Source: a virus. From it: a stretch of 64,000 nucleotides of DNA. The translations under genes were made by a program, and so were the position numbers. Shown here piece after piece: positions 5,556 to 64,000 of the stretch. The stretch's first letter is position 1; every line of letters starts with the position of its first letter. Under the pieces are notes generated by a model that searched no databases, was not told where the DNA came from, and saw only the letters and a program-made list of their open reading frames with translations. Location: the IMG/VR virus record IMGVR_UViG_3300017971_000033. One strand, 5' to 3'.

Positions 5556-5830
5556 TCAGCCGTCGCCGTAGCCGTAGCCGTCACCGTACCCGGAGCCGTT
5601 GTTAAAGACGGAGTCGTACCCGTATCCGTACCCGGAGCCGTAGCCGCCACCGTAGCCGTAGCCGTAGCCGGAGCCGTCGCCGTAGCCGTAGCCGTAGGTG
5701 TAGCCGTCGCCGTAGCCGGAGCCGTAGGTGTAGCCGTACCCGTACCCGTATCCGTACCCGGAGCCGTTGTTAAAGACGGAGTCGTAGCCGTTGCCGAAGC
5801 TGGAGCCGTAGCCGTAGCCGGAGCCGGAGC
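5556..5830. repeat. hexanucleotide-type repeat tract (GTAGCC / GTACCC variants) encoding the GY repeats
   Basis: Runs of ccgtagccgtagcc and ccgtacccgta are visible directly in the sequence. Confidence 0.8.
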
Positions 5831-5843
5831 CGTCGCTATTCAT
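5556..5843 (-). CDS. Gly/Tyr-repeat low-complexity protein (95 aa)
   Basis: Start [13 protein letters not shown]... at 5843 overlaps the stop of the upstream gene (ATGAATAG). Almost entirely GYGYG repeats, with [12 protein letters not shown] occurring twice. No signal peptide. Confidence 0.6.
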
Positions 5844-6162
5844 CCCAATCCCCAAGAGGATAAAAAAACATTGGGGTCTCAAGAACAACTTCTCCAATAC
5901 TGTCTATGCGATCGTCACCTACCGGGCCATTCTTTGCGAACTCAGGCAAGCCCCCTTCACGCTTTGACCAATACCGCAGGTTGCTGGCATCCTTCAGAAA
6001 TAGATAGCCGCCTTGTTGCCATAACAGGCCGAAGTGGATAAATCCATGCGGCATGATGGCCAATACCCGCCTGCCGTGGTATGGATGGCGATTACTATCA
6101 GTAGATGTATTGCTTGATTCCTGACACAACAATTCCCGTAGATCATTCATTGATAATTCCAT
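5836..6162 (-). CDS. hypothetical protein
   Basis: ORF track. Start preceded by the repeated TTTGGAGAGATGATATG cassette. Confidence 0.8.
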
Positions 6163-6163
6163 A

Positions 6164-6311
6164 TCATCTCTCCAAATTTAGTTGTCCAATACGCTCAATT
6201 AGCCGTTCATTCTCCTGCTCCAGTTCGGCGATGCGCTTTTGCAGATCAACAAACAACATAGATGCGCTTTTGCAGATCAACCAACAACATACCAGCTGAC
6301 TGTGTACTCAT
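6164..6311 (-). pseudogene. small coiled-coil ORF interrupted by a 31-bp tandem duplication
   Basis: ATG 6311 reads MSTQSAGMLLVDLQKRI, then shifts frame and stops at 6246. Removing one repeat copy gives MSTQSAGMLLVDLQKRIAELEQENERLIERIGQLNLER*. The duplicated internal ATG at 6259 can still express MLFVDLQKRIAELEQENERLIERIGQLNLER (6164-6259). Confidence 0.45.
6230..6291. repeat. 31-bp direct tandem duplication (2 copies, 1 mismatch)
   Basis: gatgcgcttttgcagatcaacAaacaacata (6230-6260) and gatgcgcttttgcagatcaacCaacaacata (6261-6291). Confidence 0.95.
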
Positions 6312-6312
6312 A

Positions 6313-6513
6313 TCATCTCTCCAAATAGGGCCTTCGAGGTTTCTCCGCGTATTTTCCATCATGCCATCCGGTTACCCACACGCGGTATTTACGCAGCGCA
6401 GACAAGGGCCACTGCCTGTACGGGCAGGGAGCCATTGGCAAGCCCGCCGCTTCACGCCTGCCTGCCGTAAATCCTCTACGGTAAACAATCGGATACGTTC
6501 TCATATCATTCAC
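6313..6513 (-). CDS. ribosome modulation factor (Rmf)-like small protein
   Basis: RGFTAGRREAAGLPMAPCPYRQ...WVTGWHDG parallels E. coli RMF RGYQAG...CPYQ...WLGGWREA. Confidence 0.6.
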   Translation of the reverse strand: MNDMRTYPIVYRRGFTAGRREAAGLPMAPCPYRQWPLSALRKYRVWVTGWHDGKYAEKPRRPYLER

Positions 6514-6773
6514 TCCTGTAAGGCTTTCTTAAAGTGTGTCACCCATTGATTTGTGGTTTGACAATCAAGGTACTCCTGAATAGCTTTTTGTAGCTTCTTG
6601 TTTTTCTGTTCCAATATCGTACAGTCTTGTGCAACTGCATCATATGATGCTTCAAGTTCGACGATGCGCTCTTGCTGTTTTACAATTAGTCGCTGAGTGT
6701 GCAGCTTTCTATCCCAACAATTACACTTTGGGAAAGTACAATCCGCTTCATTGCATGGTGTCGCTATCGCCAT
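6510..6773 (-). CDS. hypothetical Cys-rich / coiled-coil protein
   Basis: ORF track; ATGA-type overlap with the downstream gene. Confidence 0.8.
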   Translation of the reverse strand: MAIATPCNEADCTFPKCNCWDRKLHTQRLIVKQQERIVELEASYDAVAQDCTILEQKNKKLQKAIQEYLDCQTTNQWVTHFKKALQE

Positions 6774-6777
6774 TTAA

Positions 6778-7107
6778 TTAACCTCCATTCGCTATTTGCG
6801 AATTGCGAAACTCCCGCGCCGTCATATAAGCCTGCTTCGGATGGCACTGCCTCATGCGGCGAGCGCACTCCTGATTGCCAATATGCGGCTTGTATTTGTT
6901 ATTGCTAAGCGCAGGCCAGTAGAAGAACCAGCGGTGAGCGCCGGGATCAATCCGGCTTGGCCCGTATTTGAGCGCCTTGTGGATGGCTGGCATCGGCGCA
7001 GTCCCGGAGAGATCTCCGATATTCCACGGATTCAGCCGCCGTAGAGCGCCTGTAAAGGCCGAAAGGCCCGAGCGCCTGTTAAGCCCCATGCTTCCTTTGT
7101 GTGTCAT
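6778..7107 (-). CDS. hypothetical protein
   Basis: ORF track; AGAGGA upstream of ATG 7107. Confidence 0.75.
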   Translation of the reverse strand: MTHKGSMGLNRRSGLSAFTGALRRLNPWNIGDLSGTAPMPAIHKALKYGPSRIDPGAHRWFFYWPALSNNKYKPHIGNQECARRMRQCHPKQAYMTAREFRNSQIANGG

Positions 7108-7140
7108 TTAGGTGTCCTCTGGTTGGTTGAGAGGCAACCT

Positions 7141-7194
7141 GCCGACTAGCGAGTTTACGGTCGCACCGCAGAGGCTCTGATCTAGCCGACAGAT
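7141..7194 (-). other. stem-loop directly downstream of the beta-barrel gene
   Basis: 11-bp stem from ctgccgactag (7141-7151) and ctagccgacag (7184-7194). The two non-WC positions are G-U in minus sense and A-C/C-A in plus sense. Confidence 0.4.
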
Positions 7195-7203
7195 TGCCAT
7201 TAC

Positions 7204-7878
7204 TCAGTTGTGCGGATTGTCATTCCCGCTGTTTGGTGAATTGTCACGGCCCTTGCCGCGTCCGGGGTTGGTGCCGTCGCCTAATCCCGAGTGACTATTC
7301 GGATTACCGCCACTATCACTACCGCCGTCACCACCGCCATCGCCACCGTCGCCGTCGCCTCCATCATCGCCTGAGTCGCCGCCTCCGTTGCCGTTGTCAC
7401 CGCCTCCGTCCGTGCGGTCATTATCTCCCGAGTTGTTTCGTCCATTGTCATCTCCATCATCGTTAAACCGCGCGCCTGCAAACAGGTACGAGGTGTCCTT
7501 GTTTGCGCCATACGTTACGGCGCCGGCTTCCCAATCATTGTCATAGTCAGCACGGATACCGGCATAAGGCACAAGGTCTTTGTGGTGAGAGGAAAAAGCC
7601 ATACCAGCGGACGGGACAACCGAAGTGAACGCGGTTAGCCCGAGACCGATCTGATAGTTCTTGTTTCCATCGATTCCGGCCCTTGCCTCGGTATTGTCAC
7701 GGCGCACGATAACCTGCGCACCAACTGAGTCAAAGGTAAGCGGAACTGTAATGTGCAAGCCGACATATCTGTCATCGTCATCGGCCATTGCGGCGTTAGA
7801 TCCGAAAATCATAAAGCCAAGCGCAATGCCAATCACAAGCCAAACAAAGTCTCTTGCTATCTGTTTTTCTAACTTCAT
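7204..7878 (-). CDS. secreted Ail/Lom/OmpX-like beta-barrel candidate with a C-terminal Gly/Asp-rich tail
   Basis: Start MKLEKQ... at 7878, preceded by AAAGGAG. Signal peptide ...FGSNAAMA/DDDD. About 150 aa of alternating beta-strand-like sequence ends ...SYLFAGARF, followed by about 90 aa of G/D/N low complexity. Flanked by about 90-nt intergenic gaps on both sides (moron-like). Confidence 0.7.
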   Translation of the reverse strand: MKLEKQIARDFVWLVIGIALGFMIFGSNAAMADDDDRYVGLHITVPLTFDSVGAQVIVRRDNTEARAGIDGNKNYQIGLGLTAFTSVVPSAGMAFSSHHKDLVPYAGIRADYDNDWEAGAVTYGANKDTSYLFAGARFNDDGDDNGRNNSGDNDRTDGGGDNGNGGGDSGDDGGDGDGGDGGGDGGSDSGGNPNSHSGLGDGTNPGRGKGRDNSPNSGNDNPHN

Positions 7879-7966
7879 GGTATTACTCCTTTCGTTTGTC
7901 GGTAAAATCTCCTCCGACAAAAGCTATTTATTATTCTTGTTGTTTTGTTTTTATTATTGCTTGCCT

Positions 7967-9937: not shown

Positions 9938-10871
9938 CAGCAGCCTCCTTGGTTGCTTCTTCCTTCGCCTTGCGATCTGCCGTTTCTTGTTTGAACTGGT
10001 GGCAGAAGTCTTTAACGTCACAATAACTATTGCAACGCTTATTCTCACCGAGAACAAGCTCAATAGAATATCCCTTCTTGAGACTACCATCCTCGACAAA
10101 GCCCTTCTGCTTGCAGTAGGCTTCCGCTTCCTCGATTGTCGGCAGGTTGCGGATGGATGACTTGCGCCCTTCTTTGCGGATCTTGTAGGTGTCACCGCTA
10201 TACCACTTCTCATCCTTCGCGCAAGGTGGCAATTCATGGTCGGGGTATTCCTTCGCCATAACGTGGAGAGAGAGGCGCTCGTTAATATAGCGCTCTATTT
10301 CCTCGTCAGACTTCGGCTCAATGACAATGCGCTGAACAGCCGCATCAGGCATGTTGGGATCTTCGCGGTGCCTGCGGTTAAAGTCGCGCAGGAAGGCAAC
10401 AATCTCGATGCTGTCAACCTGATAGCCGGAGTGTCGAGCGAGATAGGCGTAGAGATTTAACTGGTCTGACCAGCGCTTGACTGTCTCGTCGCTGTTCATC
10501 GCATAAATACTCGTATCCTTGTAATCAACAAGAGCGGTCTCATCTTCGCTTGTCAGCAGGTCAAACTTGCCGGTCAGGATACCTTGCTCAAACTCCTTGC
10601 GCACTCTGTCCTCAACGATTCCTGTCTTGTTGGCGCGTTCCAGTGCGCCGTGCATTGATTTACCGCGAGCCGCAAAGATCATTTGATCTACGTCAACGAT
10701 AATGTCATTCCAATGGCGACGGCGCAGTTGTACTTGCTGCGGCGGTGACATCAAGGCGGTCACGCTTATGACGAACTTCTCTCCGGGTTTCGGTACATGG
10801 TAATCGTAATCATCGAGCATAATCAGATTAACCAGTGCCTCCGGGAAATTCTGGCGGTTTGTGTATTTCAT
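9930..10871 (-). CDS. PD-(D/E)XK (RecB/Cas4-like) exonuclease
   Basis: GKFDLL...ALVDYKDTS provides the D...D/ExK core, followed by QLNLYAYL (the QxxxY motif). C-terminal Cys cluster CNSYCDVKDFC. Confidence 0.8.
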   Translation of the reverse strand: MKYTNRQNFPEALVNLIMLDDYDYHVPKPGEKFVISVTALMSPPQQVQLRRRHWNDIIVDVDQMIFAARGKSMHGALERANKTGIVEDRVRKEFEQGILTGKFDLLTSEDETALVDYKDTSIYAMNSDETVKRWSDQLNLYAYLARHSGYQVDSIEIVAFLRDFNRRHREDPNMPDAAVQRIVIEPKSDEEIERYINERLSLHVMAKEYPDHELPPCAKDEKWYSGDTYKIRKEGRKSSIRNLPTIEEAEAYCKQKGFVEDGSLKKGYSIELVLGENKRCNSYCDVKDFCHQFKQETADRKAKEEATKEAADD

Positions 10872-11104
10872 CGGCGCACCCCTTTCTTTGGCTTGAACTC
10901 GCCACAGAAATCACCGTCTGTCGTAATTGGACGGACAAAGGAGCAGGCGTTCTCGGTAGCGGCGCAGAAATCCTCTGGCATGTTGCCGACATAAACCGGA
11001 TCAAGGAGCGGCGGGTACCGGTAGCAGAATCCCGTTAGATTATTCTCAATGTTGCTTTGCCACGTATCCCGCCAATAAAAGCAATTGATGCATTTTTCTT
11101 TCAT
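10868..11104 (-). CDS. Cys-rich hypothetical protein
   Basis: ORF track; ATGA overlap with the downstream gene. Confidence 0.75.
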   Translation of the reverse strand: MKEKCINCFYWRDTWQSNIENNLTGFCYRYPPLLDPVYVGNMPEDFCAATENACSFVRPITTDGDFCGEFKPKKGVRR

Positions 11105-11130
11105 TGCAATTCCTCTTTTTAGAAAGGCAA

Positions 11131-11152
11131 CGCACGGGGTGAACCGTGCGCG
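11131..11152 (-). terminator. hairpin downstream of the SSB-like gene (weak terminator or processing site)
   Basis: gcacgg (11131) pairs with ccgtgc (11147). In minus sense it is followed by a moderately U-rich tail. Confidence 0.35.
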
Positions 11153-11168
11153 CCTTGGTTGGGGTTAC

Positions 11169-11846
11169 TTAAAAAGGGATGTCGTCATCGAAGTCGTCAT
11201 CAACATGCGGCGACGGTGCCGATGCGTTGGCTTGCGTTACGCTCTGATCAGTCGGCTCATCGTTACCGTATAACGCACGATATTGCTTGGAATCCTTGAT
11301 CATGCGCTGATAGCCTTGACCTAACTTCTCAAAGGTCTCTTTGTCGAATTCAGACAAATCAAACTTGAGAAGCGGCGTTAAGCGCTTCGGAACATCAACC
11401 CCTGTCGGTGGAGACATGACAACGGTAACTTGCTCGCGGATGTCGCCGTTTTTCTTCTTGGCGTGGATTACACCAATCAGGCCGGGACGACCGAGCAAGC
11501 CATTGGGATTCCCTTCCGGGTCCCACTTATCAACAATGTCATAGTTCTCCGCTTCCTCGTCATTGTCAAAGGCACGACCAAGCCAGCTTTCCACTCGCTT
11601 ACGCAAGTTGGCTTTCTCGTTCATTGACAGAGTTAGAAACTCGGTAACTTGGAAGGGGTATTGTTTCCCCTCGTCGTTTGGTTCCTTGAGGCAAGTGGTT
11701 AGCTCATAAACAAAGCAGACTTTGTGGACATCCTTCGAGTACATCTCATTGAATGTCGTGCCAAGGTCAATGATCTTTGTCAGATATCCGGGATGGTTTC
11801 CGGGTGGCGCCTTCGGGAAGTCAACGGCGTTAGCAGGTGCTTTCAT
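11169..11846 (-). CDS. phage single-stranded-DNA-binding-type protein with a canonical SSB C-terminal tip
   Basis: Start MKAPANAVDF... at 11846, preceded by AAAGGAG. The C-terminus ...DDDFDDDIPF matches the acidic tip of bacterial SSB (E. coli SSB ends DFDDDIPF). Confidence 0.75.
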   Translation of the reverse strand: MKAPANAVDFPKAPPGNHPGYLTKIIDLGTTFNEMYSKDVHKVCFVYELTTCLKEPNDEGKQYPFQVTEFLTLSMNEKANLRKRVESWLGRAFDNDEEAENYDIVDKWDPEGNPNGLLGRPGLIGVIHAKKKNGDIREQVTVVMSPPTGVDVPKRLTPLLKFDLSEFDKETFEKLGQGYQRMIKDSKQYRALYGNDEPTDQSVTQANASAPSPHVDDDFDDDIPF

Positions 11847-11918
11847 AACTTTACTCCTTTCACGGTTTCGTGGATTCACCTCGATTCGGCTTATGCCTTT
11901 GAGGTGTCAATTAAGCTA

Positions 11919-11962
11919 CCATGACGACCGCCTATTTGACAGCCGTCATGGCGAACTTTTTT
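11919..11962. terminator. 8-bp hairpin with the T-run on the plus strand and the A-run on the minus strand (bidirectional-type terminator)
   Basis: ccatgacg (11919-11926) pairs with cgtcatgg (11944-11951). TTTTTT at 11957-11962 overlaps the stop of the minus-strand DUF932 gene. Confidence 0.45.
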
Positions 11963-13022
11963 AGGCGGCTTCTGCTATCCGCTGCCACTCCGAATTCCCG
12001 AGAGTAAGGATCTTCCCGCCTAACTGGTGGAGATCTTCGGCTCGGTCGGCGCCGGTCTTGTTGGCCTGCGCCGTAACCGCGTTCAGAACGCCCCAGCGGC
12101 TGTAATCCTGCGCCTTGATTAAATCCTCAAGGATTCCTTCGGATTCCATCGAGGGGAGCGCATATGCCTTCTGAAGCACCTCTACGGCCTTGATTGGATT
12201 CTCCACCTTGGTTCCCTGCGTGGCTGCACGCATCTCTTCCATCAGCCGGAAGAACAAATTGGGATCTGAGAGGTTGTGGATGGCATCCCGGATCTGCAAG
12301 AGCATTGCCTTATCCAAGGCTTCTTGCGTGTCGGCACGGTAGACAACATTGTCATCATTGCCAACCTTCGGCCCGAGGTGCGTCTTGCGGACTCGACCGC
12401 TGTTGATTTCCTTCGGGACGATCATCCCGTTAGAGCAAACCAGTCTGTAGATAAGCGGCGAAATATCCAAGGCACCAAGCCCGACTTCCGAGTTCCGGAT
12501 CCGCAGACCCCACTGGACGGGATCACCAACGGCCACATCCCCGATGATCTTTGGCATGCGGACATTGATATACAAGTTGCGGTCAGTCACATCGGAACTG
12601 ACAACCTCGTATGAACCGAGCTCCTTATCCATCATCGCCTGCAAGGAAGTCATGGCAACCGGGAGGTTGTCAATTCGCTTGTAATGATCTGACAGGAAGG
12701 CGCGGGCTTCTCCGTCAAGCGTGCGAACCATGCGCCGCTTCGGTTCCTTGTTGAACCAGAAGTTCACATTATCCGCAAGCAGTTCCGGGTTAGCAGACCG
12801 CAGGCGGTCATAGTACCGCGTCGGGATCTTGGTGTGAGTGGCGATCTGCTGATGCGCCAAGTCGTTGGCGGGCATCCCCTCGTCATTGGTAATGCCTTCG
12901 AGGAGTAACGTGGTGTCCGGCGTCATCTCTAAATCGCGGGAATCAATCACAAAATCCTCTTTGACAATTTCACGGCGCTGCAATTCATGCAGTAACTCTT
13001 CGACAGTTTTACCTTGATACAT
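11961..13022 (-). CDS. DUF932-family protein (phage/plasmid-associated)
   Basis: Start MYQGKTVEEL... at 13022, preceded by AAAGAGGAA. AHQQIATHTKIPTRYYDRL ... RAFLSDHYKRIDNLPV matches my recollection of the DUF932 signature. Confidence 0.75.
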   Translation of the reverse strand: MYQGKTVEELLHELQRREIVKEDFVIDSRDLEMTPDTTLLLEGITNDEGMPANDLAHQQIATHTKIPTRYYDRLRSANPELLADNVNFWFNKEPKRRMVRTLDGEARAFLSDHYKRIDNLPVAMTSLQAMMDKELGSYEVVSSDVTDRNLYINVRMPKIIGDVAVGDPVQWGLRIRNSEVGLGALDISPLIYRLVCSNGMIVPKEINSGRVRKTHLGPKVGNDDNVVYRADTQEALDKAMLLQIRDAIHNLSDPNLFFRLMEEMRAATQGTKVENPIKAVEVLQKAYALPSMESEGILEDLIKAQDYSRWGVLNAVTAQANKTGADRAEDLHQLGGKILTLGNSEWQRIAEAA

Positions 13023-13065
13023 TTTAAGATTCCTCTTTAAGGTTAAGTGCGTCAAAAAATACTCG

Positions 13066-13094
13066 TTGACTGAAAAATCGGAAGTGGCTAGTAT
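13066..13094 (+). promoter_or_regulatory. sigma70-type promoter candidate TTGACT-17 nt-TAGTAT
   Basis: -35 TTGACT at 13066-13071, a 17-nt spacer, and -10 TAGTAT at 13089-13094. Located in a 150-nt gap between minus-strand genes. Confidence 0.45.
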
Positions 13095-13101
13095 TCCGCT
13101 T

Positions 13102-13174
13102 GATCACTCCTTCGTTGATCTCGGAAGAACCTCACTTCCAACATTTGCCCCGTCATAACTGGCGGGGCTTTTTT
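13102..13174 (+). ncRNA. candidate ~70-nt small RNA, antisense to the leftward operon
   Basis: The promoter above is followed by hairpins GATCA/TGATC (13102-13120) and GGAAG/CTTCC (13123-13139), then an intrinsic terminator at 13147-13174. Confidence 0.4.
13147..13174 (+). terminator. rho-independent terminator (plus sense)
   Basis: GCCCCGTC (13147-13154) pairs with GGCGGGGC (13161-13168), followed by TTTTTT. The only non-WC pair is U-G in plus sense and C-A in minus sense. Confidence 0.6.
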
Positions 13175-13484
13175 AATGCTCCTCGTATGAATCAATAATC
13201 AACTGCGCAATCTCGGGCCAGTTGACCTTTGAAAATCCAACGCTGAGCAAGTCGTAAAGCAAGCCGGGTCCTTTCACCTCCTTGTCTAACATTGATTGAT
13301 AGTAGGCTTCCATTTGAACGCCGATAAAAATCTCAAGCGGCGAACCAAGTGAAGCGGGGCTTTGTAACTTGACCAACTGCGCGGCAAGGTCAAGCCATCG
13401 GTTGAACTGCGTATCATCAGCGAATAGCCATGACGCAGCCAACCAAGTTTCGTGATTGGAAACCTGATGCGGTGCTATATTCAT
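13173..13484 (-). CDS. hypothetical protein
   Basis: ORF track; ATGA overlap upstream. Confidence 0.8.
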   Translation of the reverse strand: MNIAPHQVSNHETWLAASWLFADDTQFNRWLDLAAQLVKLQSPASLGSPLEIFIGVQMEAYYQSMLDKEVKGPGLLYDLLSVGFSKVNWPEIAQLIIDSYEEH

Positions 13485-13672
13485 TCTCCATCCTCCTCGA
13501 TCATGTAGGTGAAATAGCGGCTATTAATGGTTCGATATCCACCGGAAGCGTAAACTCTGACCTTCTTGATACGCTCACGGACCTGAGCCCCGCGCTCAGC
13601 CAACCGCTTGCGGGCGGTTGACTTTGCGCAGCCTTGCTCCTTGGCATATTCCTCAGCGGTAACTTCCCGCAT
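13481..13672 (-). CDS. small basic protein, possibly DNA-binding
   Basis: ORF track. EQGCAKSTARKRLAERG is HTH-like. Confidence 0.7.
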   Translation of the reverse strand: MREVTAEEYAKEQGCAKSTARKRLAERGAQVRERIKKVRVYASGGYRTINSRYFTYMIEEDGE

Positions 13673-13674
13673 GG

Positions 13675-13989
13675 TTATACCTCAAACGCGGACGGGATGA
13701 CAGCAACAAGCCGCGCATCCTTTTGACAAAAACCGACATCAAACACAGCGTTTGTCGGATCAATCAAGCCAGCATTTTCCAGTGCGTCAAAAGCACCGGC
13801 ATAGATGCCGTTAAGCCGGACAAAGGTAAACCCCGGAGAGATATCTATGTCAATGAGGTTGACAGTCGGCACAAGGATTGGCGAGCCATCTTCCGCGTCA
13901 ACCAACTCGATGGCGGGTCTGCCGTTCGGATAACTCCGCAAAAAGGCCTTGCATGTGTAGTCTTGGAATTTAAGTGTCGGTGCCTTCAT
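13675..13989 (-). CDS. hypothetical protein
   Basis: ORF track; tight packing. Confidence 0.8.
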   Translation of the reverse strand: MKAPTLKFQDYTCKAFLRSYPNGRPAIELVDAEDGSPILVPTVNLIDIDISPGFTFVRLNGIYAGAFDALENAGLIDPTNAVFDVGFCQKDARLVAVIPSAFEV

Positions 13990-15155: not shown

Positions 15156-15207
15156 TCTAAACTCCTTTCAGGATTCACCTGTCTCAGTTTGTGGTCTCGT
15201 CATCAGT

Positions 15208-15253
15208 ATGCGGCGACCATCCCGCATAGACCGCATGTAGGGATGTCATGCGG
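15208..15253. other. pair of hairpins built from repeated ATGCGG/CCGCAT segments
   Basis: atgcgg (15208-13) pairs with ccgcat (15222-27). ccgcatg (15231-37) pairs with catgcgg (15247-53), followed by tttctgtt on the plus strand. Alternative pairings are possible. Confidence 0.35.
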
Positions 15254-15265
15254 TTTCTGTTGGTG

Positions 15266-17201: not shown

Positions 17202-17506
17202 TTGCCGCCCCTCGTAAGACCGCCCGCAAGCGGATGCCACTCATAAGCGCCGTTGTCATATTGATCCATGACTGCATCGCGCACGGCCATGACATCGCTC
17301 ATGACAACCTCAATTGTTCCGAGCGGGTCGGAGTCGAAGTTAGGATCATCAAATACGATGTTGTGTTTTACCTTTCCGTAAACGCACCGCGAATGATCAT
17401 TGAAAACCAAATCGCCTTCATCAGTGAAGCCGCAAGTAATGACTTGACCTTCTGCGGAGTATTGGCGACCGGTATTAAAAGTGAATTGTGCGACGATCTC
17501 AGACAT
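17198..17506 (-). CDS. hypothetical protein, paralog of 17506-17757
   Basis: Start MSEIVAQFTF... at 17506 overlaps the upstream stop (TGATG). LVFNDHSRCVYGKV matches VLFKDHSTQQCGKV in the neighbouring gene. Confidence 0.75.
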   Translation of the reverse strand: MSEIVAQFTFNTGRQYSAEGQVITCGFTDEGDLVFNDHSRCVYGKVKHNIVFDDPNFDSDPLGTIEVVMSDVMAVRDAVMDQYDNGAYEWHPLAGGLTRGGK

Positions 17507-17757
17507 CAGACTTCCCTCCATACTGGTTTCAGTCCGGCAGCGACTGCGTTCCAATCAAAGAAGCCGACAGAGCGTGAAGAGTCAACAATGTCTTGCACGG
17601 TTTCCTGCGGCGTGTCGGTATTAAGAAGGCAGAAGGCGACCTTGCCGCACTGCTGCGTTGAATGGTCTTTGAATAAAACCGCACCGTCATCCAATACGGC
17701 GACGGTGACGGCTTTTGATTCGTCATTGGTGTAGGTGAATTTAAGTTTCATAATCAT
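17506..17757 (-). CDS. hypothetical protein, paralog of 17198-17506
   Basis: ORF track. GGGAGA upstream of the MIMKLKF start region. Confidence 0.75.
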   Translation of the reverse strand: MIMKLKFTYTNDESKAVTVAVLDDGAVLFKDHSTQQCGKVAFCLLNTDTPQETVQDIVDSSRSVGFFDWNAVAAGLKPVWREV

Positions 17758-17799
17758 TCTCCCTTTAAGTAAGAAGTCTAAAACCAGTTGGCGCAGGTT

Positions 17800-17871
17800 T
17801 TAGTGAGTGGCGTGGATGTAGTAAAGCGTTGCGGACAAAACAACAACGATCAAAAGAGCAAAAGTAGTCAT
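17800..17871 (-). CDS. tiny hydrophobic peptide candidate (23 aa), first ORF of the leftward unit
   Basis: GAGGAAATCACC precedes ATG 17871. MTTFALLIVVVLSATLYYIHATH. Confidence 0.3.
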   Translation of the reverse strand: MTTFALLIVVVLSATLYYIHATH

Positions 17872-17895
17872 GGTGATTTCCTCGATATGCGGTTG

Positions 17896-17923
17896 ATAAA
17901 GACACCGTAAGCGGTGCCTTTAT
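17896..17923 (-). terminator. 12-bp hairpin (AUAAAGGCACCG-CUUA-CGGUGUCUUUAU in minus sense), terminator or attenuator-like
   Basis: Its one non-WC pair is G-U in minus sense and A-C in plus sense. Lies 25 nt upstream of the first leftward start codon. Confidence 0.4.
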
Positions 17924-18105
17924 TGCCGCACACCTTTCGGCGTGCAGTCCTTCCGGGAAGTTGGCAGACAATCCGTGACACTGCGATGCGTTTTAGCGGT
18001 CGCGCCATGTCATTCTGTTGTCGGCGATCTTCCGTTCCGGTTGGGTTTGGTCCTTTTCGGTTTCCCCTAACAAGGCGGCTCGTGGTTGTTCTCAACTCAG
18101 CCTTG

Positions 18106-18138
18106 TCGCCGCTATCCGTGCGGCGGGGGTTTTCTTTT
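18106..18138 (+). terminator. terminator-like hairpin in plus sense (UCGCCGC-UAUCCGU-GCGGCGG, then GGG UUUUCUUUU)
   Basis: 7-bp GC-rich stem 18106-18112/18120-18126 followed by a T-rich run at 18130-18138. It conflicts with the minus-sense evidence, so the strand of the region is unresolved. Confidence 0.35.
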
Positions 18139-18783
18139 GGTCTTGGTGGAAGGTGGCGGGGAGGGTTTTAAAAATCTTGACTAAAGATCTTTTAGGTTTC
18201 CGCTTTTAGTTTGCCGCTCGCTCTTTTAACCTTGAATCGGCTTGCGCCTCGGTCCGCTCGTCTTAGGGAGGTTGGATTCTTCCGGGAAGTTTCCGTGGGG
18301 GCTTGCTGCGTTCCAGTTGGACGGTCTTGGCAATTCCATTCAACCCTGTCTCGAGTCGGATGCGGTTTGGCAATCATCTTGCTATTCCACTTTGACTCAG
18401 CCGCGCTTTAGCGTTTCCTGATCCTCTTCGGATCCCCGATCACCTCGGTCCCCTTTCGCGCTGTTGACAGGTGAGATGGTTTCCCGACTTACTCCCTGCA
18501 ATAAATCCGCTAATCAGTTTGGCGTTTCTTCCGCGGCTTACTGCTCTTGAAGGCGTCCTTGCCTTCCCTTCTAATCCCGCGGTGGCTGGCTTGGTCTCAA
18601 GCCCTTGCCCCGTTCGGGATGACGTCATGCCTGACGCCAGATTTAATATTGCCTTGCCTATTTCCATATGTACATAGTTATGGTAGCTTATCTATCGGCT
18701 CGGGAACTGGATGCCTTAATTCATCCTAACTCCTTGATCCGTAAAGCGAAAAACAGCCGAAAATACAGAGACCTCTGAACTGG

Positions 18784-18824
18784 CTGACTCCTGCTTTTGC
18801 TCATAATACTAATTAATTCAGCAA
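18784..18824 (+). promoter_or_regulatory. candidate rightward early promoter (CTGACT-17-TACTAA) overlapping an AT-rich inverted repeat TTGCT-N18-AGCAA
   Basis: -35 at 18784-18789 and -10 at 18807-18812. Inverted repeat at 18797-18824. Lies 16-56 nt upstream of the Cro-like start. Confidence 0.35.
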
Positions 18825-18839
18825 CTTAGGAGTGATATC

Positions 18840-19040
18840 ATGCTAGAAGCCCGTAGCCTTAAAATCGTAATAAAGCAAGCCGGCGGTCCTTCCGCAGTTT
18901 CCCGGAGAACCGGATTCTCACGGCAAGCTATCCATTCATGGATTAACCGCGGAGACATCCCACGCGCCACAAGGCGCAAGTTAGAAGCCGCTGGTATTTC
19001 AACAACAACGCTGCTGCCGTTTGGCACTGACTGGAAATAG
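18840..19040 (+). CDS. Cro / YdaS-type helix-turn-helix regulator
   Basis: AGGAG lies 7 nt upstream of ATG. GGPSAVSRRTGFSRQAIHSWINRGDIP is a typical Cro/YdaS HTH. First gene of the rightward unit. Confidence 0.8.
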   Translation: MLEARSLKIVIKQAGGPSAVSRRTGFSRQAIHSWINRGDIPRATRRKLEAAGISTTTLLPFGTDWK

Positions 19041-19042
19041 TG

Positions 19043-19066
19043 AATTGTATATTTGAATATACAATT
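19043..19066. promoter_or_regulatory. 24-bp palindrome AATTGTATAT-TTGA-ATATACAATT (copy 1 of the repeated motif); candidate operator
   Basis: Perfect 10-bp arms. Sits immediately after the Cro-like stop and spans the first possible start codon of the next gene. A TTGACA hexamer follows at 19069-19074. Confidence 0.5.
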
Positions 19067-19382
19067 GCTTGACACTCCAAACAGTTCGCTTCCCGGTTTA
19101 CTGTCACAGCTTGGCTGTGTCGTTTGCCTTCGCTTAGGTTATGGCGAAACGCCCGCAGAGATTCACCACTTGCGCAGCGGCGCAGGTATCGCGCAGCGAA
19201 GCGACAACAGCCGTGCCATTCCCCTATGCCACCTTCACCATCGCAATGGCGGTTATGGTGTTGCGTTCCACGCAGGGCCAAGGGAGTTTGAACGGCTGTT
19301 CGGCACTGAGGAGGAGTTGTTGGAATACACGCACAACTTACTCGAAACCAAAATCAAACGAGGTGAGATATGTACGAAGTAA
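19053..19382 (+). CDS. Ref-like HNH endonuclease (start codon uncertain; TTG 19053 or 19065)
   Basis: CVVCLRLGYGETPAEIHHLRSGAG...IPLCHLHHRNG matches the CxxC...HH...PLCxxHH pattern of P1 Ref-type nucleases. There is no ATG before the CxxC. Confidence 0.7.
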   Translation: MNIQLLDTPNSSLPGLLSQLGCVVCLRLGYGETPAEIHHLRSGAGIAQRSDNSRAIPLCHLHHRNGGYGVAFHAGPREFERLFGTEEELLEYTHNLLETKIKRGEICTK

Positions 19383-19699: not shown

Positions 19700-20505
19700 A
19701 TGACGAGCGTTATGGTTTCAAGGGCGTCTTTATCCCGGCCGCAGTGTGGAAGGATCATCGGCTAAACGCACTGGAGATGGTGTTACTGACAGAAATCTTC
19801 TATCTGTCAAACGGGAAAACACCTTGCATTGCGTCAAACCAGTATTTGGCGACATTCATCAAGCGGGATAAGCGGACTGCTAAACGGATAGTTAGCAAGT
19901 TAGAGGAGTGCGGTTATATTCGCACCGAGGTTGACCGGGACGATCAGAGAGTAGTTACGCAAAGACGTATATTTGTGGATGCCGCTTTGTATCATGGAGT
20001 TGATACCCCTAGTGACAAAAATGTCCCCACCCCTCGTGACAAAAATGTCCCTACCCCTAGTGACAAAAATGTCCCCTATAGTAATAAAAGACCTTTTAGT
20101 AATAATAAAACCATATTGTGCGAAAACAACAAAAAGGAATCAGTGGAACGGTTTGAGGAATTCTGGCAGGCTTACCCCTCGGGATACCGAAAGGGAGGGA
20201 AAAAGAAAGCCCGAGATATTTGGAAACGTAAAAACCTCGATAAGATCGCTGACGCACTTATTGCTGATGTCGGTCTCCGGGCTGCAAAAGACCGGTCATG
20301 GCTTGACGGCTATATTCCGATGACGACAACATACCTGAACCAAGAGAGGTGGCAAGACGATATACAAACCGCAGGACCGAAACAAAAGGAAACCGCAGAA
20401 GATCGGCGACAAGCCCGACGCAAGCGGATTGAGGAAAGAGAAAACAAAATCAACGGCAAAATCATCGAGGGGGAATACCATGCAGAAATTAATAAACTTG
20501 TCTGA
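19696..20505 (+). CDS. replication initiator / replisome organiser with internal iterons
   Basis: The N-terminus is a wHTH paralogous to the preceding gene. The central TPSDKNVP repeat is encoded by three 24-bp iterons. C-terminal FEEFWQAYPSGYRKGGKKKA motif. Confidence 0.75.
   Translation: MNDERYGFKGVFIPAAVWKDHRLNALEMVLLTEIFYLSNGKTPCIASNQYLATFIKRDKRTAKRIVSKLEECGYIRTEVDRDDQRVVTQRRIFVDAALYHGVDTPSDKNVPTPRDKNVPTPSDKNVPYSNKRPFSNNKTILCENNKKESVERFEEFWQAYPSGYRKGGKKKARDIWKRKNLDKIADALIADVGLRAAKDRSWLDGYIPMTTTYLNQERWQDDIQTAGPKQKETAEDRRQARRKRIEERENKINGKIIEGEYHAEINKLV
20005..20076. repeat. three tandem 24-bp iterons (ACCCCTAGTGACAAAAATGTCCCC); probable replication origin
   Basis: Copies at 20005-20028, 20029-20052 and 20053-20076 with 2-3 mismatches. 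They lie inside the initiator gene, as in lambda O / ori. Confidence 0.8.
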
Positions 20506-28209: not shown

Positions 28210-29697
28210 ATGCCGGTCAACTCAGAACATCCGCAATACAAAATCCGCAAAGACCAGTGGCGCAAGTGCCGCCATACCATCGCCGGATCTGACACGATCA
28301 AAAAGCACACCACGGAATATCTGCCGCCGCTGGCAGAGCAGACCGATGGTGAATACCACGCCTACCTGTCACGCGCGTTGTTCTATGGCGCTTCCAGCCG
28401 TACCGTACAAGCCTTGATGGGCGCGATATTCCGCAAGCCCTACAACGTCAAATACCCCGAAGAACTCGAATACCAGCTAGAGAACATTACCAAGGACGGC
28501 AAAGACCTTGATACCTTTGTCCGCGATGTTGTTTACGAGATCATATCCGCAGGCCGCGTTGCCATTCTCCCGGATGCGTTAAAGCTAAAGGAAAACGAAA
28601 CGGCAACGACATCGAACGCAAGACCTTATCTCGCGGTATATACCACGGAAGCGCTTATCAACTGGCGAACCATGCTGCTGGAAGGCGAAGAGCAAGTCAT
28701 TATGGCCGTGCTGGAGGAGTCCTACACGGAGCAGAAGCAGAATGATGAATATGAGCTGGAGGTCAAGACGCAATACCGCGTGCTGCGTATCGGCATGGAA
28801 GGCAGAGGCCAAGGCGCGCGGTATCAGCAAGACGTTTATCGCAAAGTCCGTGACAAGTGGGTTGTCGTCCCGGAACTGCATGCGGCCCCTGTGCGTATTG
28901 GTACGCCGCTGACGAATATCCCGCTGGAAATCATAAACACCTACGATCTGACAACCGATGCAGACAAGCCGCCGCTGCTGGATCTTATTGAAGTCAACCT
29001 GTCTCACTTCCGCACCTCTGCTGATCTTGAGCATGGTGCACATTACACCGCGTTGCCTACCGCTTGGGTTGCCGGATTCCCGAAGGGTAGCAAGTTGCGT
29101 ATCGGCTCAAGTTCCGCATGGATGACAGAAGAGACTGATGCCAAGGCCGGCTTCTTGGAATACACCGGCAAGGGATTAAGCACCCTGCAAGAAATCAAGC
29201 GCGACAAGGAACAGTTGATGGCTATCCTTGGCGCTCGGTTACTGGAGGAAAACAAGAAAGCCGCCGAAGCCGCTGACACGCTCAAGATCCGCGCAGCAAG
29301 CGAGACAGGTTCACTGACCGCGATGGCAAAGAATATTTCTTCCGGGATTACCGAGGCGCTCAAGACGCTGGCGTGGTGGAGCGGTGCGAGTGACCAGCAG
29401 ATTGAAGAGATTGCCTTTGAGCTGAATACCGACTTCATCGACACCAAGCTGTCACCGCAGGAGATGCAGGCGCTTATGCAGCTATACCAAGGCGGCAGTA
29501 TTTCGCAGGATACTTTCCTCTATAACCTCAAGCGCGGCGAAGTTCTCCCGGATGATGTCACTATCGATGACGAAAAGGATCTCATTGAGATGGACGAGGA
29601 GCAGGAGCCGGATATGACTAACGTAACGCCGTTCAAGCGCAGCTTCTCTGTCGAGCGTGACGAGCAAGGCCAGCTTGTCGGCGTCAACGAGGAATAA
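28210..29697 (+). CDS. portal protein (DUF4055-type)
   Basis: Start MPVNSEHPQYK... at 28210, preceded by GGGGGCAGG. YHAYLSRALFYGASSRTVQALMGAIFRKP matches the DUF4055 portal N-terminal signature. Lies directly after terL. Confidence 0.85.
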   Translation: MPVNSEHPQYKIRKDQWRKCRHTIAGSDTIKKHTTEYLPPLAEQTDGEYHAYLSRALFYGASSRTVQALMGAIFRKPYNVKYPEELEYQLENITKDGKDLDTFVRDVVYEIISAGRVAILPDALKLKENETATTSNARPYLAVYTTEALINWRTMLLEGEEQVIMAVLEESYTEQKQNDEYELEVKTQYRVLRIGMEGRGQGARYQQDVYRKVRDKWVVVPELHAAPVRIGTPLTNIPLEIINTYDLTTDADKPPLLDLIEVNLSHFRTSADLEHGAHYTALPTAWVAGFPKGSKLRIGSSSAWMTEETDAKAGFLEYTGKGLSTLQEIKRDKEQLMAILGARLLEENKKAAEAADTLKIRAASETGSLTAMAKNISSGITEALKTLAWWSGASDQQIEEIAFELNTDFIDTKLSPQEMQALMQLYQGGSISQDTFLYNLKRGEVLPDDVTIDDEKDLIEMDEEQEPDMTNVTPFKRSFSVERDEQGQLVGVNEE

Positions 29698-63601: not shown

Positions 63602-64000
63602 TGGCTTTCTACGATACCAACTTCCCGGATGATATAAGCTACGGTTCCCGAGGCGGTCCGAGGTTCGACACAACTGTTATCAAACTCCGCTCCGGTCACC
63701 AACAGCGTAACGCTAATTGGGAATACCCGTTGCATGAATACGATGTGGCTTACGGGATTCGGAATAATACGCAGCTAGGTGCAGTGCGGAATTTCTTTTT
63801 GGCGATGCTCGGTCGCGCCCATTCGTTTCGTTTCAAGGATTGGGGTGATTACAAGAGCACGATTGGCGCAAGCACAACGGCAGCGACCGATCAGCGGGTA
63901 AGCGTTGCCGGTACCTCAACGACTGGCAGCTATTGGCAATTGCAGAAGGTATACACCATCAGCAGCGCCGTCTTTACCCGCACGATCACGAAGCCGGTAA
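63601..64000 (+). CDS. distal tail protein, DUF2460 / GTA orfg12-like (5' part; continues past the window)
   Basis: MAFYDTNFPDDISYGSRGGPRFDTTVIKLRSGHQQRNANWEYPLHEYDVAYGIR...FRFKDWGDYKS parallels the DUF2460 N-terminus known from the Rhodobacter GTA and related phages. Confidence 0.8.
   Translation, partial: MAFYDTNFPDDISYGSRGGPRFDTTVIKLRSGHQQRNANWEYPLHEYDVAYGIRNNTQLGAVRNFFLAMLGRAHSFRFKDWGDYKSTIGASTTAATDQRVSVAGTSTTGSYWQLQKVYTISSAVFTRTITKPV

What the first reader, a model, noticed from the sequence alone, without database searches (positions are those of the whole stretch)
17872..18839. About 0.97 kb with no credible gene, packed with hairpins, between the two divergent operons: candidate large structured RNA or giant leader
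About 970 nt separate the first SD-preceded leftward start (17871) from the Cro-like start (18840), and they hold no convincing CDS. Every six-frame ORF here is 85 aa or shorter, R/S/P/G-rich, lacks an SD and overlaps other ORFs. Elsewhere in the window genes are separated by about 0-200 nt and often overlap. The stretch is not AT-rich like a plain promoter region. It is dense in perfect local hairpins: 17896-17923 (12 bp), 17928-17945 (7 bp), 18106-18126, 18420-18434, 18549-18566 nested inside a CCGCGG/CCGCGG pairing (18531-18536 with 18576-18581), and 18588-18603. In 17896-17923 and 17928-17945 the single non-Watson-Crick position is G-U on the minus strand but A-C on the plus strand. The minus-sense loop of 17928-17945 is GAAA (GNRA). 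Minus sense also carries five GGAAAC motifs and several GAAA/GAAGA loops. CTTCCGGGAAGTT occurs twice (near 17950 and 18279). The 17896-17923 hairpin lies 25 nt upstream of the first leftward ORF. The region could therefore be a very long structured leader or attenuator. It could also be a stand-alone ncRNA in the size class of the phage-associated ornate RNAs GOLLD and ROOL. I cannot claim homology to any family. One signal conflicts: 18106-18126 is followed by TTTTCTTTT on the plus strand, so the transcribed strand, or strands, is unresolved.
Basis: partly seen in the sequence, partly recalled or inferred. Interest (0 to 1): 0.85.

Follow-up and report, generated by a model that had tools for sequence, protein, structure and literature searches.

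The report
Orphan gene-free hairpin-rich phage leader
An uncultured phage has about 1 kb with no gene between its two divergent early operons, and the sequence suggests a long folded RNA read leftward, but no relative exists to confirm this.

Summary
Window 17872-18839 has no credible gene: ORFs are 85 aa or shorter, all have negative codon-usage scores, and no frame hits Pfam or PHROGs. It matches no Rfam family and no DNA in any collection I could reach.

The 0.75-kb core (17896-18642) is the most compositionally skewed stretch of the 64 kb, with 31% A and 14% U on the minus sense.

Several tests favour a minus-sense RNA:
- Long stems are enriched on that strand only.
- Non-Watson-Crick positions in the six best hairpins are G-U on minus 9 times against 1.
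- The folding z-score is -3.9 on minus against -2.3 on plus.
- The core ends in a 12-bp terminator-like hairpin 25 nt before the first leftward Shine-Dalgarno sequence.

The support is limited. Some coding windows fold as well, and the GGAAAC and GNRA claims are not above chance.

The phage is an orphan. Its flanking proteins have no homologues among 5.8 billion sequences, and other assemblies of it are 99.99% identical, so covariation cannot be tested.

The best reading is a long structured leader or non-coding RNA of the leftward early operon (confidence about 0.4). It is not a member of GOLLD, ROOL or any other curated family.

The parts
17896..18642 (-). Core of the candidate structured RNA or leader (about 747 nt): A 31%, U 14%, G 28%, C 27% in minus sense
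   Evidence: It has the most extreme AT skew of the 64 kb. The folding z-score is -3.94 on minus against -2.27 on plus. Ensemble diversity is 96 against 176 +/- 33 in shuffles on minus, with no difference on plus. It has no coding potential.
18643..18839 (.). AT-richer divergent control region (GC about 0.45), the probable site of both early promoters. It holds the direct repeats GAACTGGATGCCT (18704) and GAACTGGCTGACT (18777) and the palindrome CCATA..TATGG (18664-18683).
   Evidence: Sequence, composition, repeats. No E. coli-type sigma-70 consensus was found, so promoter placement is inferred.
18620..18639 (-). Hairpin at the 5' edge of the skewed core (8 bp, loop GGCA, one G-U on minus)
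   Evidence: Pair probability 0.99.
18575..18619 (-). Extended irregular hairpin of 17 predicted pairs in four helices (5 + 3 + 3 + 6), tipped by 18588-18603 (loop AGAC)
   Evidence: Pair probabilities 0.97-1.00.
18549..18566 (-). Hairpin GAAGGC-AAGGAC-GCCUUC (6 bp)
   Evidence: probability 1.00.
18498..18544 (-). 12-bp interrupted hairpin (8 + 4 bp) with a 22-nt loop
   Evidence: probability 0.99-1.00.
18420..18434 (-). Hairpin GAUCC-GAAGA-GGAUC (5-bp stem). By my recollection of the lambda sequence (not tested here), this is the same stem length and loop as lambda nutL boxB.
   Evidence: probability 0.99. No boxA lies on the same strand (read).
18353..18398 (-). Stacked three-helix hairpin domain (5 + 4 + 4 bp)
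   Evidence: probability 0.96-0.99.
18170..18192 (-). 9-bp A/U-rich hairpin (one G-U on minus)
18107..18125 (-). 6-bp G+C hairpin. Read on the plus strand it is followed by GGGTTTTCTTTT and looks like a terminator.
   Evidence: The number of plus-strand terminator-like sites is not clearly above shuffles.
17956..18033 (-). Nested four-helix domain (5 + 5 + 6 + 4 bp). Its outermost helix uses part of the first CTTCCGGGAAGTT copy.
   Evidence: probability 0.81-0.97.
17950..17962 (.). 13-mer CTTCCGGGAAGTT, copy 1
   Evidence: an exact 13-nt repeat is reached in 0.7% of shuffles.
18279..18291 (.). 13-mer CTTCCGGGAAGTT, copy 2
17926..17947 (-). 9-bp hairpin with a GAAA tetraloop and two G-U pairs on minus
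   Evidence: (probability 0.99).
17896..17923 (-). Terminator-like hairpin: 12 bp in all, with a G+C core of 7 bp, then UUUAUCAA. It lies 25 nt upstream of the first leftward ATG.
   Evidence: probability 0.98. On plus, an A-C mismatch cuts it to 5 bp. The U-tract is too weak to pass the scan's rule on minus.
17800..17871 (-). First Shine-Dalgarno-preceded leftward ORF, 23 aa and hydrophobic (MTTFALLIVVVLSATLYYIHATH). The metagenome gene caller did not call it.
   Evidence: (codon score +0.12).

Best explanation
The gap is non-coding. Its 0.75-kb core is transcribed leftward (minus strand) from an early promoter in the AT-richer 18643-18839 segment. That gives a 0.75-0.9 kb multi-hairpin RNA rich in unpaired A.

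The RNA is the 5' leader of the leftward early operon. It ends in a GAAA-tetraloop hairpin followed by a terminator-like hairpin 25 nt before the first ribosome-binding site.

Most likely the terminator with its weak U-tract splits transcription into two products: a terminated leader RNA that accumulates, and read-through mRNA for the roughly 17-kb early-left operon. The folded leader would then gate or time early-left expression.

Shown: absence of genes, strand-asymmetric hairpins and composition, and the position of the terminator-like hairpin. Inferred: transcription itself, the promoter position, partial termination and the regulatory role.
For: **Non-coding**
- ORFs are 85 aa or shorter.
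- Codon-usage scores of the gap ORFs are -0.07 to -0.32. The 25 long genes used for training score +0.17 to +0.49.
- No Pfam or PHROG hit in any of the six frames.
- No Shine-Dalgarno-plus-ATG small ORF inside the gap.

**Minus sense**
- A is 31% and U 14% on the minus sense, an AT skew of +0.38. This is the extreme of the window. It is opposite in sign to the skew at four-fold degenerate sites of both operons, which is -0.14 to -0.18.
- Stems of 7 bp or more: 12 against 1.9 +/- 1.7 on minus, not significant on plus.
- Folding z-score -3.94 on minus against -2.27 on plus.
- Ensemble diversity and positional entropy give z = -2.4 on minus against -0.1 on plus. 35% of bases have a pair with probability above 0.9, against 13.5% in shuffles.
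- In the six best hairpins, internal transition mismatches are G-U on minus 9 times and A-C once. Shuffles expect 1.7 to 3.4, and the genome background is about 1:1.

**Layout**
- The hairpin 17896-17923 is stronger on minus and lies 25 nt from the first Shine-Dalgarno sequence, leaving no room for a promoter.
- The only AT-richer, repeat-bearing control DNA is 18643-18839.
- The replication origin is probably elsewhere: 24-nt x3 iterons lie inside the rep gene.
- A distant relative with the same divergent layout has only a 372-nt gap, so the extra 0.7 kb is an addition and not a standard spacer.
- A hammerhead ribozyme lies in the same leftward transcript, so RNA-level processing of this operon is plausible.
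Against: - No transcript data exist.
- No sigma-70-like promoter was found on either strand.
- The U-tract UUUAUCAA is weak.
- Folding z-scores of -3 to -5.7 also occur in coding windows at 10.5-13.7 kb.
- A coding window at 29000 has similarly low ensemble entropy.
- 13 of 168 windows also carry five or more hairpins by the same rule.
- GGAAAC and GNRA are not enriched.
- There is no homologue, so there is no evidence of conservation or covariation.
- No known aptamer or antitermination motif was detected.
- The strongly skewed composition could instead mark foreign or decaying DNA.
Confidence: 0.4

Rival explanations
1. It is a stand-alone, trans-acting large non-coding RNA of about 750 nt on the minus strand, in the size class of GOLLD, ROOL and the ICP1 800-nt RNA. 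It is made early and ends at its own terminator. It acts on host or phage factors, for example as a scaffold, a multimer or a protein decoy, and does not regulate the downstream operon in cis.
For: - It shares all the strand and structure evidence of the best explanation.
- It has its own terminator-like 3' end.
- Its size matches known phage large RNAs. An abundant RNA of about 800 nt from a 1-kb ORF-less gap is documented in phage ICP1 (PMC7567579).
- The palindrome-containing 13-mer that occurs twice could mediate self-association (inference only).
Against: - No Rfam family matches, including GOLLD, ROOL, OLE and HEARO.
- There are no tRNA genes nearby.
- The early-left operon has no promoter of its own after the terminator, so read-through is needed anyway.
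- No homologue occurs in other phages, which is unlike the widespread ornate RNAs.
Confidence: 0.2
2. It is DNA with no selected RNA structure: a foreign or decaying insert, or a non-transcribed spacer with protein-binding sites between the two early promoters. The hairpins would then be ordinary inverted repeats and the skew a relic of the DNA's origin.
For: - No homologue or conservation can be shown.
- Thermodynamic scores are within the range of some coding windows.
- The motif claims are at chance level.
- No promoter was detected.
- A relative manages with a 372-nt gap.
Against: - The G-U against A-C asymmetry of 9 to 1 runs against what the composition predicts.
- Stems are enriched on one strand only.
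- The skew is opposite in sign to the neutral four-fold-site skew for leftward sense, and more than twice its size for rightward sense.
- No remnant of any Pfam or PHROG family is present.
- Phage genomes rarely keep 0.7 kb of inert DNA (general knowledge).
- The leftward operon then lacks any plausible promoter region close to it.
Confidence: 0.22
3. It is a plus-strand transcript: either a long U-rich leader of the cro-like operon, or a short rightward RNA ending at the 18106-18126 hairpin with its T-run.
For: - A terminator-like site lies on plus at 18106-18126.
- A boxA-like CGCTCTTTTAAC lies on plus at 18219-18230 (read).
- The plus-sense folding z-score is -2.27.
- The T>A skew has the same sign as rightward four-fold sites.
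Against: - Plus-sense stems, ensemble diversity and entropy do not differ from shuffles.
- Hairpin mismatches become A-C on plus.
- The A-poor plus strand has no promoter-like -10 element.
- The count of terminator-like sites is not clearly above shuffles.
- A 7-8-nt boxA-like word is expected by chance about once in ten such regions (my estimate).
Confidence: 0.08
4. It holds one or more unrecognised small protein genes. One candidate is the basic arginine-rich 46-75-aa frame at 18095-17868, whose stop codon overlaps the ATG at 17871. This would resemble lambda N placed downstream of a boxB-like hairpin.
For: - The frame stays open for 98 codons.
- It shows an ATGA stop/start overlap with the 23-aa ORF.
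- A boxB-like GAAGA hairpin lies upstream at 18420-18434.
Against: - The codon score is -0.19.
- It has only a TTG start with a weak AAGG, or an ATG with no Shine-Dalgarno sequence.
- U-poor sequence yields long stop-free R/K-rich frames by chance.
- There is no Pfam or PHROG hit.
- The metagenome gene caller did not call it.
- No boxA lies on that strand.
Confidence: 0.05

Closest known systems
GOLLD and ROOL (large ornate phage-associated RNAs; Rfam families)
   Same: Similar size class (0.6-0.8 kb), phage-borne, non-coding, with many hairpins and A-rich unpaired regions.
   Different: There is no covariance-model match even at E <= 10 and no nearby tRNA gene. It sits directly upstream of an operon as a leader. 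No relatives are known.
ICP1 ~800-nt abundant non-coding transcript in a ~1-kb ORF-less gap (PMC7567579)
   Same: A phage-encoded ORF-less stretch of about 1 kb. In ICP1 this gives an RNA of about 800 nt of unknown function.
   Different: There is no sequence similarity to any record in the phage collection. The position differs: between divergent early operons here, next to the lysis cluster in ICP1. Transcription is not shown here.
Lambda nutL leader with N antitermination, and HK022 put RNA (processive antitermination elements just downstream of early promoters)
   Same: It lies at the start of the leftward early operon. It contains a 5-bp hairpin with a GAAGA pentaloop, which by my recollection matches lambda nutL boxB. 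A terminator-like hairpin lies ahead of the first gene.
   Different: No boxA lies on the same strand and no N-like protein is evident. The element is about ten times longer than nut or put. The operon shows few strong internal terminators.
Terminator-ended regulatory leaders (riboswitch or attenuator leaders, some of which also act in trans)
   Same: The layout is promoter, folded leader, intrinsic-terminator-like hairpin, Shine-Dalgarno sequence, then the first ORF.
   Different: No known aptamer was detected. The length is several times that of typical leaders.
RNA-based immunity of P4 (CI RNA) and of P1/P7/N15 (c4-type RNAs processed from a leader)
   Same: A non-coding leader occupies the place where a repressor gene is expected. 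No CI-type repressor or integrase was found in the proteins screened.
   Different: No significant internal or target complementarity was found. Those RNAs are under 100 nt.

Membership tests
GOLLD / ROOL / OLE / HEARO and all other Rfam 15 families | Covariance-model score at or above the family's gathering threshold | tested here: not met
   The whole-window gathering scan finds only a hammerhead at 15190-15258. The permissive scan of 17500-19100 gives nothing better than E = 0.29, far below threshold.
GOLLD / ROOL | Frequent neighbourhood of tRNA genes in phages or prophages | tested here: not met
   ARAGORN finds no tRNA or tmRNA in the 64 kb.
Lambda-type nut site | boxB hairpin (5-bp stem with a GNRA-like pentaloop such as GAAGA or GAAAA) on the transcript | tested here: met
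   GAUCC-GAAGA-GGAUC at 18434-18420 on minus sense, pair probability 0.99. It could arise by chance in an A-rich, hairpin-rich RNA.
Lambda-type nut site | boxA (CGCUCUUA / GCUCUUUAACAA) a few nucleotides upstream of boxB on the same strand | tested here: not met
   The only boxA-like word, CGCTCTTTTAAC at 18219-18230, is on the opposite (plus) strand and about 200 nt away (read).
Lambda-type nut site | N-like arginine-rich antiterminator encoded downstream | tested here: inconclusive
   A basic 46-75-aa frame exists at 18095-17868. It has a negative codon score, no good start and no family hit.
Intrinsic-terminator attenuator / riboswitch leader | G+C-rich hairpin followed by a U-tract between promoter and first ORF | tested here: inconclusive
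   The hairpin 17896-17923 is strong (12 bp) and correctly placed. Its tail UUUAUCAA fails the scan's rule of 5 T in 8 on minus.
Intrinsic-terminator attenuator / riboswitch leader | Recognisable ligand- or factor-binding aptamer | tested here: not met
   No riboswitch or leader family match.
Type I toxin-antitoxin (small hydrophobic peptide, long structured 5' UTR, antisense RNA) | Small hydrophobic peptide ORF behind a structured untranslated region | tested here: met
   The 23-aa ORF MTTFALLIVVVLSATLYYIHATH with a GAGG Shine-Dalgarno sequence follows the leader.
Type I toxin-antitoxin | Cognate antisense small RNA with its own promoter and terminator | tested here: not met
   No promoter-plus-terminator unit lies on the plus strand over or next to 17800-17900. 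The peptide ORF is also followed by further operon genes.
P4 / P1-type RNA immunity | Repeated complementary sequence blocks between the leader RNA and its target sites | tested here: not met
   Only chance-level short matches, within the gap and to the rest of the window.
Decayed protein gene (e.g. CI repressor) | Residual similarity to a protein family in some frame | tested here: not met
   Six-frame translations give no hit against Pfam (E <= 1) or PHROGs (E <= 0.1). A U content of 14% is too low to encode normal hydrophobic content (inference).
Any conserved structured RNA class | Homologues with compensatory base changes in the helices | not testable with these tools
   No homologue was found. 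Other assemblies of the same phage differ by 1-2 SNPs per 16-20 kb.

The most novel reading that the evidence does not exclude
This is a previously undescribed class of large (about 0.75 kb) structured phage RNA. It sits where lambdoid phages carry their repressor gene. It is made from the early leftward promoter and either gates the whole early-left operon or acts in trans as an RNA-only regulator or decoy. The phage shows no protein repressor and has a hammerhead ribozyme in the same transcript.
Probability: 0.2. Interest if true: 0.75.

Novelty: new variant of a known kind. Interest (0 to 1): 0.45.

Why it matters
Large structured RNAs in phages, such as GOLLD, ROOL and the ICP1 RNA, are few, and their functions are largely unknown. 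A new one tied to a defined regulatory position, as the leader of an early operon in place of a repressor gene, would offer a testable functional context. At present it is a single-sequence candidate from an uncultured phage, probably of an alphaproteobacterium, in a JGI metagenome. Its value depends on finding relatives or on obtaining transcript and structure-probing data.

Tried and rejected
**Known RNA families.** Rfam found nothing in the region, in both gathering and permissive modes.

**Similar DNA.** blastn or megablast against phage, plasmid and E. coli collections gave no match.

**Relatives through neighbouring genes**
- The Cro-like protein, the 81-aa protein and Rep have no homologue above 45% identity among 5.8 billion proteins.
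- IMG/VR relatives found through the Ref-like nuclease, Rep and TerL reach at most 64%, 43% and 51% identity. A scan with the 181-aa early-left protein found none.
- nhmmer of the region against all fetched loci found nothing.
- L038-L040 showed a similar AT skew, but the stretch read in L039 is an E/K-rich coding gene.

**Direct pattern scans**
- Two 13-mers with a gap, and a 19-mer, found nothing in IMG/VR.
- An 18-mer gave 48 chance hits in metagenome contigs.
- The two-13-mer pattern hit one Roseivirgaceae MAG in genome contigs. That hit is an unrelated 165-nt tandem hairpin repeat.

**Microdiversity.** The three assemblies of this phage are 99.99% identical.

**Motif and site ideas**
- GGAAAC and GGA as sponge motifs: not significant.
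- TTCCGGGAA occurs 6 times in the window, but four copies outside the gap fall inside ORF intervals, so this probably reflects coding sequence.
- nut site: the boxB-like and boxA-like elements lie on opposite strands.
- Replication origin: iterons lie inside rep instead.
- N4-type hairpin promoters: the genome is lambdoid with an RcGTA-like tail and not N4-like.
- Base-pairing of the candidate small RNA at 13.1 kb with the gap: the duplex energies were uninformative.
Full report
**Source and context**

The window is a circularly permuted phage genome of about 74.7 kb, assembled from JGI metagenome 3300017963 (contig Ga0180437_10000512) and from two ENA assemblies. The copies differ by 1-2 SNPs in 16-20 kb.

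Rightward from 18840 lie a Cro/YdaS-like helix-turn-helix protein, a Ref-like RecA-dependent nuclease, two replication-initiator proteins, a C5-methylase, terminase, portal and an RcGTA-like tail module. Leftward from 17871 runs a long operon of small orphan genes. It also holds a PD-(D/E)XK nuclease and a DUF932 protein.

TerL is at most 38% identical to that of any cultured phage. The best matches are Roseobacter and Paracoccus phages. No integrase or CI-type repressor appeared among the proteins I screened with Pfam and PHROGs or in the gene-call Pfam tables.

**Observation**

- The gap 17872-18839 has only ORFs of 85 aa or fewer.
- The metagenome gene caller also left 17752-18839 empty.
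- With a codon-usage log-odds score trained on 25 long genes of this phage, all ten ORFs lying within the gap score -0.07 to -0.32 per codon. The training genes score +0.17 to +0.49.
- Six-frame translations hit nothing in Pfam or PHROGs.
- No Shine-Dalgarno-plus-ATG small ORF exists inside the gap.
- A crude genome-wide scan shows this is the only truly ORF-poor stretch. The other low-scoring stretch, 5898-7203, holds plausible genes.
- All listed hairpins and the 13-mer repeat are present, with two small coordinate corrections.

**What is unusual, and on which strand**

*Composition.* The core 17896-18642 is 31% A, 14% U, 28% G and 27% C on the minus sense. This is the most extreme AT skew and the lowest single-base frequency of any 748-nt window. 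Four-fold degenerate sites in both operons have T>A on the sense strand (skew -0.14 to -0.18). The gap's skew is therefore not a neutral mutational equilibrium in either orientation.

*Stems.* On the minus sense, stems of 7 bp or more number 12 against 1.9 +/- 1.7 in 500 dinucleotide shuffles. Stems of 6 bp or more number 17 against 5.9 (P = 0.002). On the plus sense nothing is enriched.

*Folding energy.* The z-score is -3.94 on minus and -2.27 on plus, from 120 shuffles. This agrees.

*Ensemble definition.* On minus, ensemble diversity is 96 against 176 +/- 33, positional entropy is 0.56 against 1.01, and 35% of bases are paired with probability above 0.9 against 13.5%. The plus strand does not differ from shuffles.

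*Mismatch asymmetry.* In the six best hairpins, internal transition-type mismatches are G-U on minus nine times and A-C once. The composition predicts the opposite ratio (1.7 to 3.4 in shuffles), and the rest of the genome is about 1:1.

*The 3' end.* The 3'-terminal hairpin 17896-17923 has 12 bp on minus but only 5 on plus. It is followed by UUUAUCAA, 25 nt before the first ribosome-binding site.

**Calibration and caveats**

The thermodynamic signals are not unique.
- Among 40 other 748-nt windows, the coding stretch at 10.5-13.7 kb reaches z = -3 to -5.7.
- A coding window at 29000 has equally low entropy.
- 13 of 168 windows carry five or more hairpins by the same rule.

Other points also weaken the case.
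- Five GGAAAC copies are expected once all hexamers are considered (P = 0.26). GGA is only mildly enriched.
- GNRA loops are not enriched.
- No sigma-70-type promoter is detected on either strand. The host is probably not E. coli-like.
- The plus-strand 'terminator' at 18106-18126 is one of a number of such sites that is not clearly above chance in T-rich sequence.

**Homology**

Nothing related was found.
- Rfam, including GOLLD, ROOL, OLE, HEARO, introns and riboswitches, gives no match.
- blastn against phages, plasmids and E. coli gives no match.
- The Cro-like protein, the adjacent 81-aa protein and Rep have no relatives beyond 45% identity in a collection of 5.8 billion proteins.
- IMG/VR relatives reached through three other genes are distant and lack the region. 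A scan with a fourth gene found none.
- Pattern scans of IMG/VR, metagenome contigs and GTDB genomes gave either nothing or chance hits.
- A distant relative with the same divergent layout (L177) has only a 372-nt intergenic gap.

Covariation, which would be the decisive test, therefore cannot be run with the data reachable here.

**Interpretation**

The only AT-richer segment with repeats and palindromes typical of control DNA is 18643-18839. The replication origin is probably the 24-nt x3 iteron array inside the rep gene. No promoter-like sequence fits between the last hairpin and the first leftward ORF.

The most economical reading is that leftward early transcription starts in 18643-18839 and runs through the 0.75-kb core. 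The core would then be a long, folded leader with unpaired A-rich segments, ending in a GAAA-tetraloop hairpin and a terminator-like hairpin with a weak U-tract. Partial termination would yield both a discrete RNA of 0.75-0.9 kb and read-through mRNA.

I cannot decide whether the RNA acts in cis (gating or timing the early-left operon) or in trans like other large phage RNAs. I favour cis because of the position: 0.4 for cis against 0.2 for trans.

A hammerhead type II ribozyme lies 2.6 kb downstream in the same transcript. This shows that the operon is subject to RNA-level processing.

The alternatives are inert or foreign DNA (0.22), a plus-strand transcript (0.08) and hidden small basic proteins (0.05).

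**Comparison with known systems**

In size and context the region resembles GOLLD, ROOL and the ICP1 RNA of about 800 nt (PMC7567579). It fails the only testable membership criteria for these families.

It contains a boxB-like GAUCC-GAAGA-GGAUC hairpin, but there is no boxA on that strand and no N-like gene, so it is not a nut site.

The 23-aa hydrophobic ORF behind a structured leader recalls type I toxins. No antisense RNA unit was found, and the ORF is followed by further operon genes.

**Verdict**

This is a real, compositionally and structurally unusual non-coding region, and most probably a minus-strand structured leader or non-coding RNA of a new, so far singleton, type. The evidence comes from one sequence only, so interest is moderate.

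Noticed in passing
window 15190-15258 (minus strand): A hammerhead type II ribozyme (Rfam RF02276, 42.1 bits against a gathering score of 37, with an intact CUGAUGA / GAAAC / GUC core). It lies in a 110-nt intergenic gap of the leftward early operon, in the same sense as the genes, so it would self-cleave the polycistronic early mRNA.
   Followed up: partly
window 13066-13175 (plus strand): A unit that looks like a small RNA, antisense to the leftward operon. It has a promoter-like TTGACT-17-TAGTAT (13066-13094), then about 50 nt, then a strong terminator GCCCCGTCATAACTGGCGGGGC plus T6 (13147-13168). The predicted 5' end carries AUCACUCCU, which is complementary to the cro-like gene's Shine-Dalgarno region AGGAGUGAU (18828-18836).
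   Followed up: partly
window 10500-13750: A coding stretch (ORFs 11169-11879, 11961-13055 DUF932, 13173-13484) with folding z-scores of -3 to -5.7 on both strands, as strong as or stronger than the gap. It contains several long-range inverted repeats (for example 12578-12600 with 12780-12802). This is unexplained.
   Followed up: partly
window 20005-20076: A 24-nt x3 tandem repeat inside the replication-initiator gene, encoding (T)PSDKNVP repeats, next to an AT-rich stretch. It is probably a lambda-O-style iteron origin.
   Followed up: no
L176 3730-4100 (CAYMWA010000254.1, Roseivirgaceae MAG): A 165-nt tandem repeat. Each unit carries the perfect hairpin AACTTCCGGGAAGTT-caa-AACTTCCCGGAAGTT. 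It shares only the 13-mer with the window, and no wider similarity was detected.
   Followed up: partly
window 5556-5897 and 7204-7920 (minus strand): Two ORFs of very low complexity in the leftward arm. One is a run of G/Y repeats ([18 protein letters not shown]...). The other has a D/G/N-rich tail (GGGDNGNGGGDSGDDGGDGDGG...).
   Followed up: no
window 8, 17951, 18280, 25022, 37634, 57308 (plus strand) and 50086 (reverse): The 9-mer TTCCGGGAA occurs six times on the plus strand, where about 0.24 is expected. Four copies outside the gap fall inside ORF intervals, two of them reading F-R-E, so this probably reflects coding sequence and not a binding site.
   Followed up: partly
L179 13600-23600 (beyond window position 64000): The tail module is RcGTA-like (DUF2460, Phage_BR0599, Rcc01698_C). 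A 176-aa protein with a Sigma70_r4 domain follows the lysis genes. The likely host is an alphaproteobacterium. No integrase was seen.
   Followed up: no
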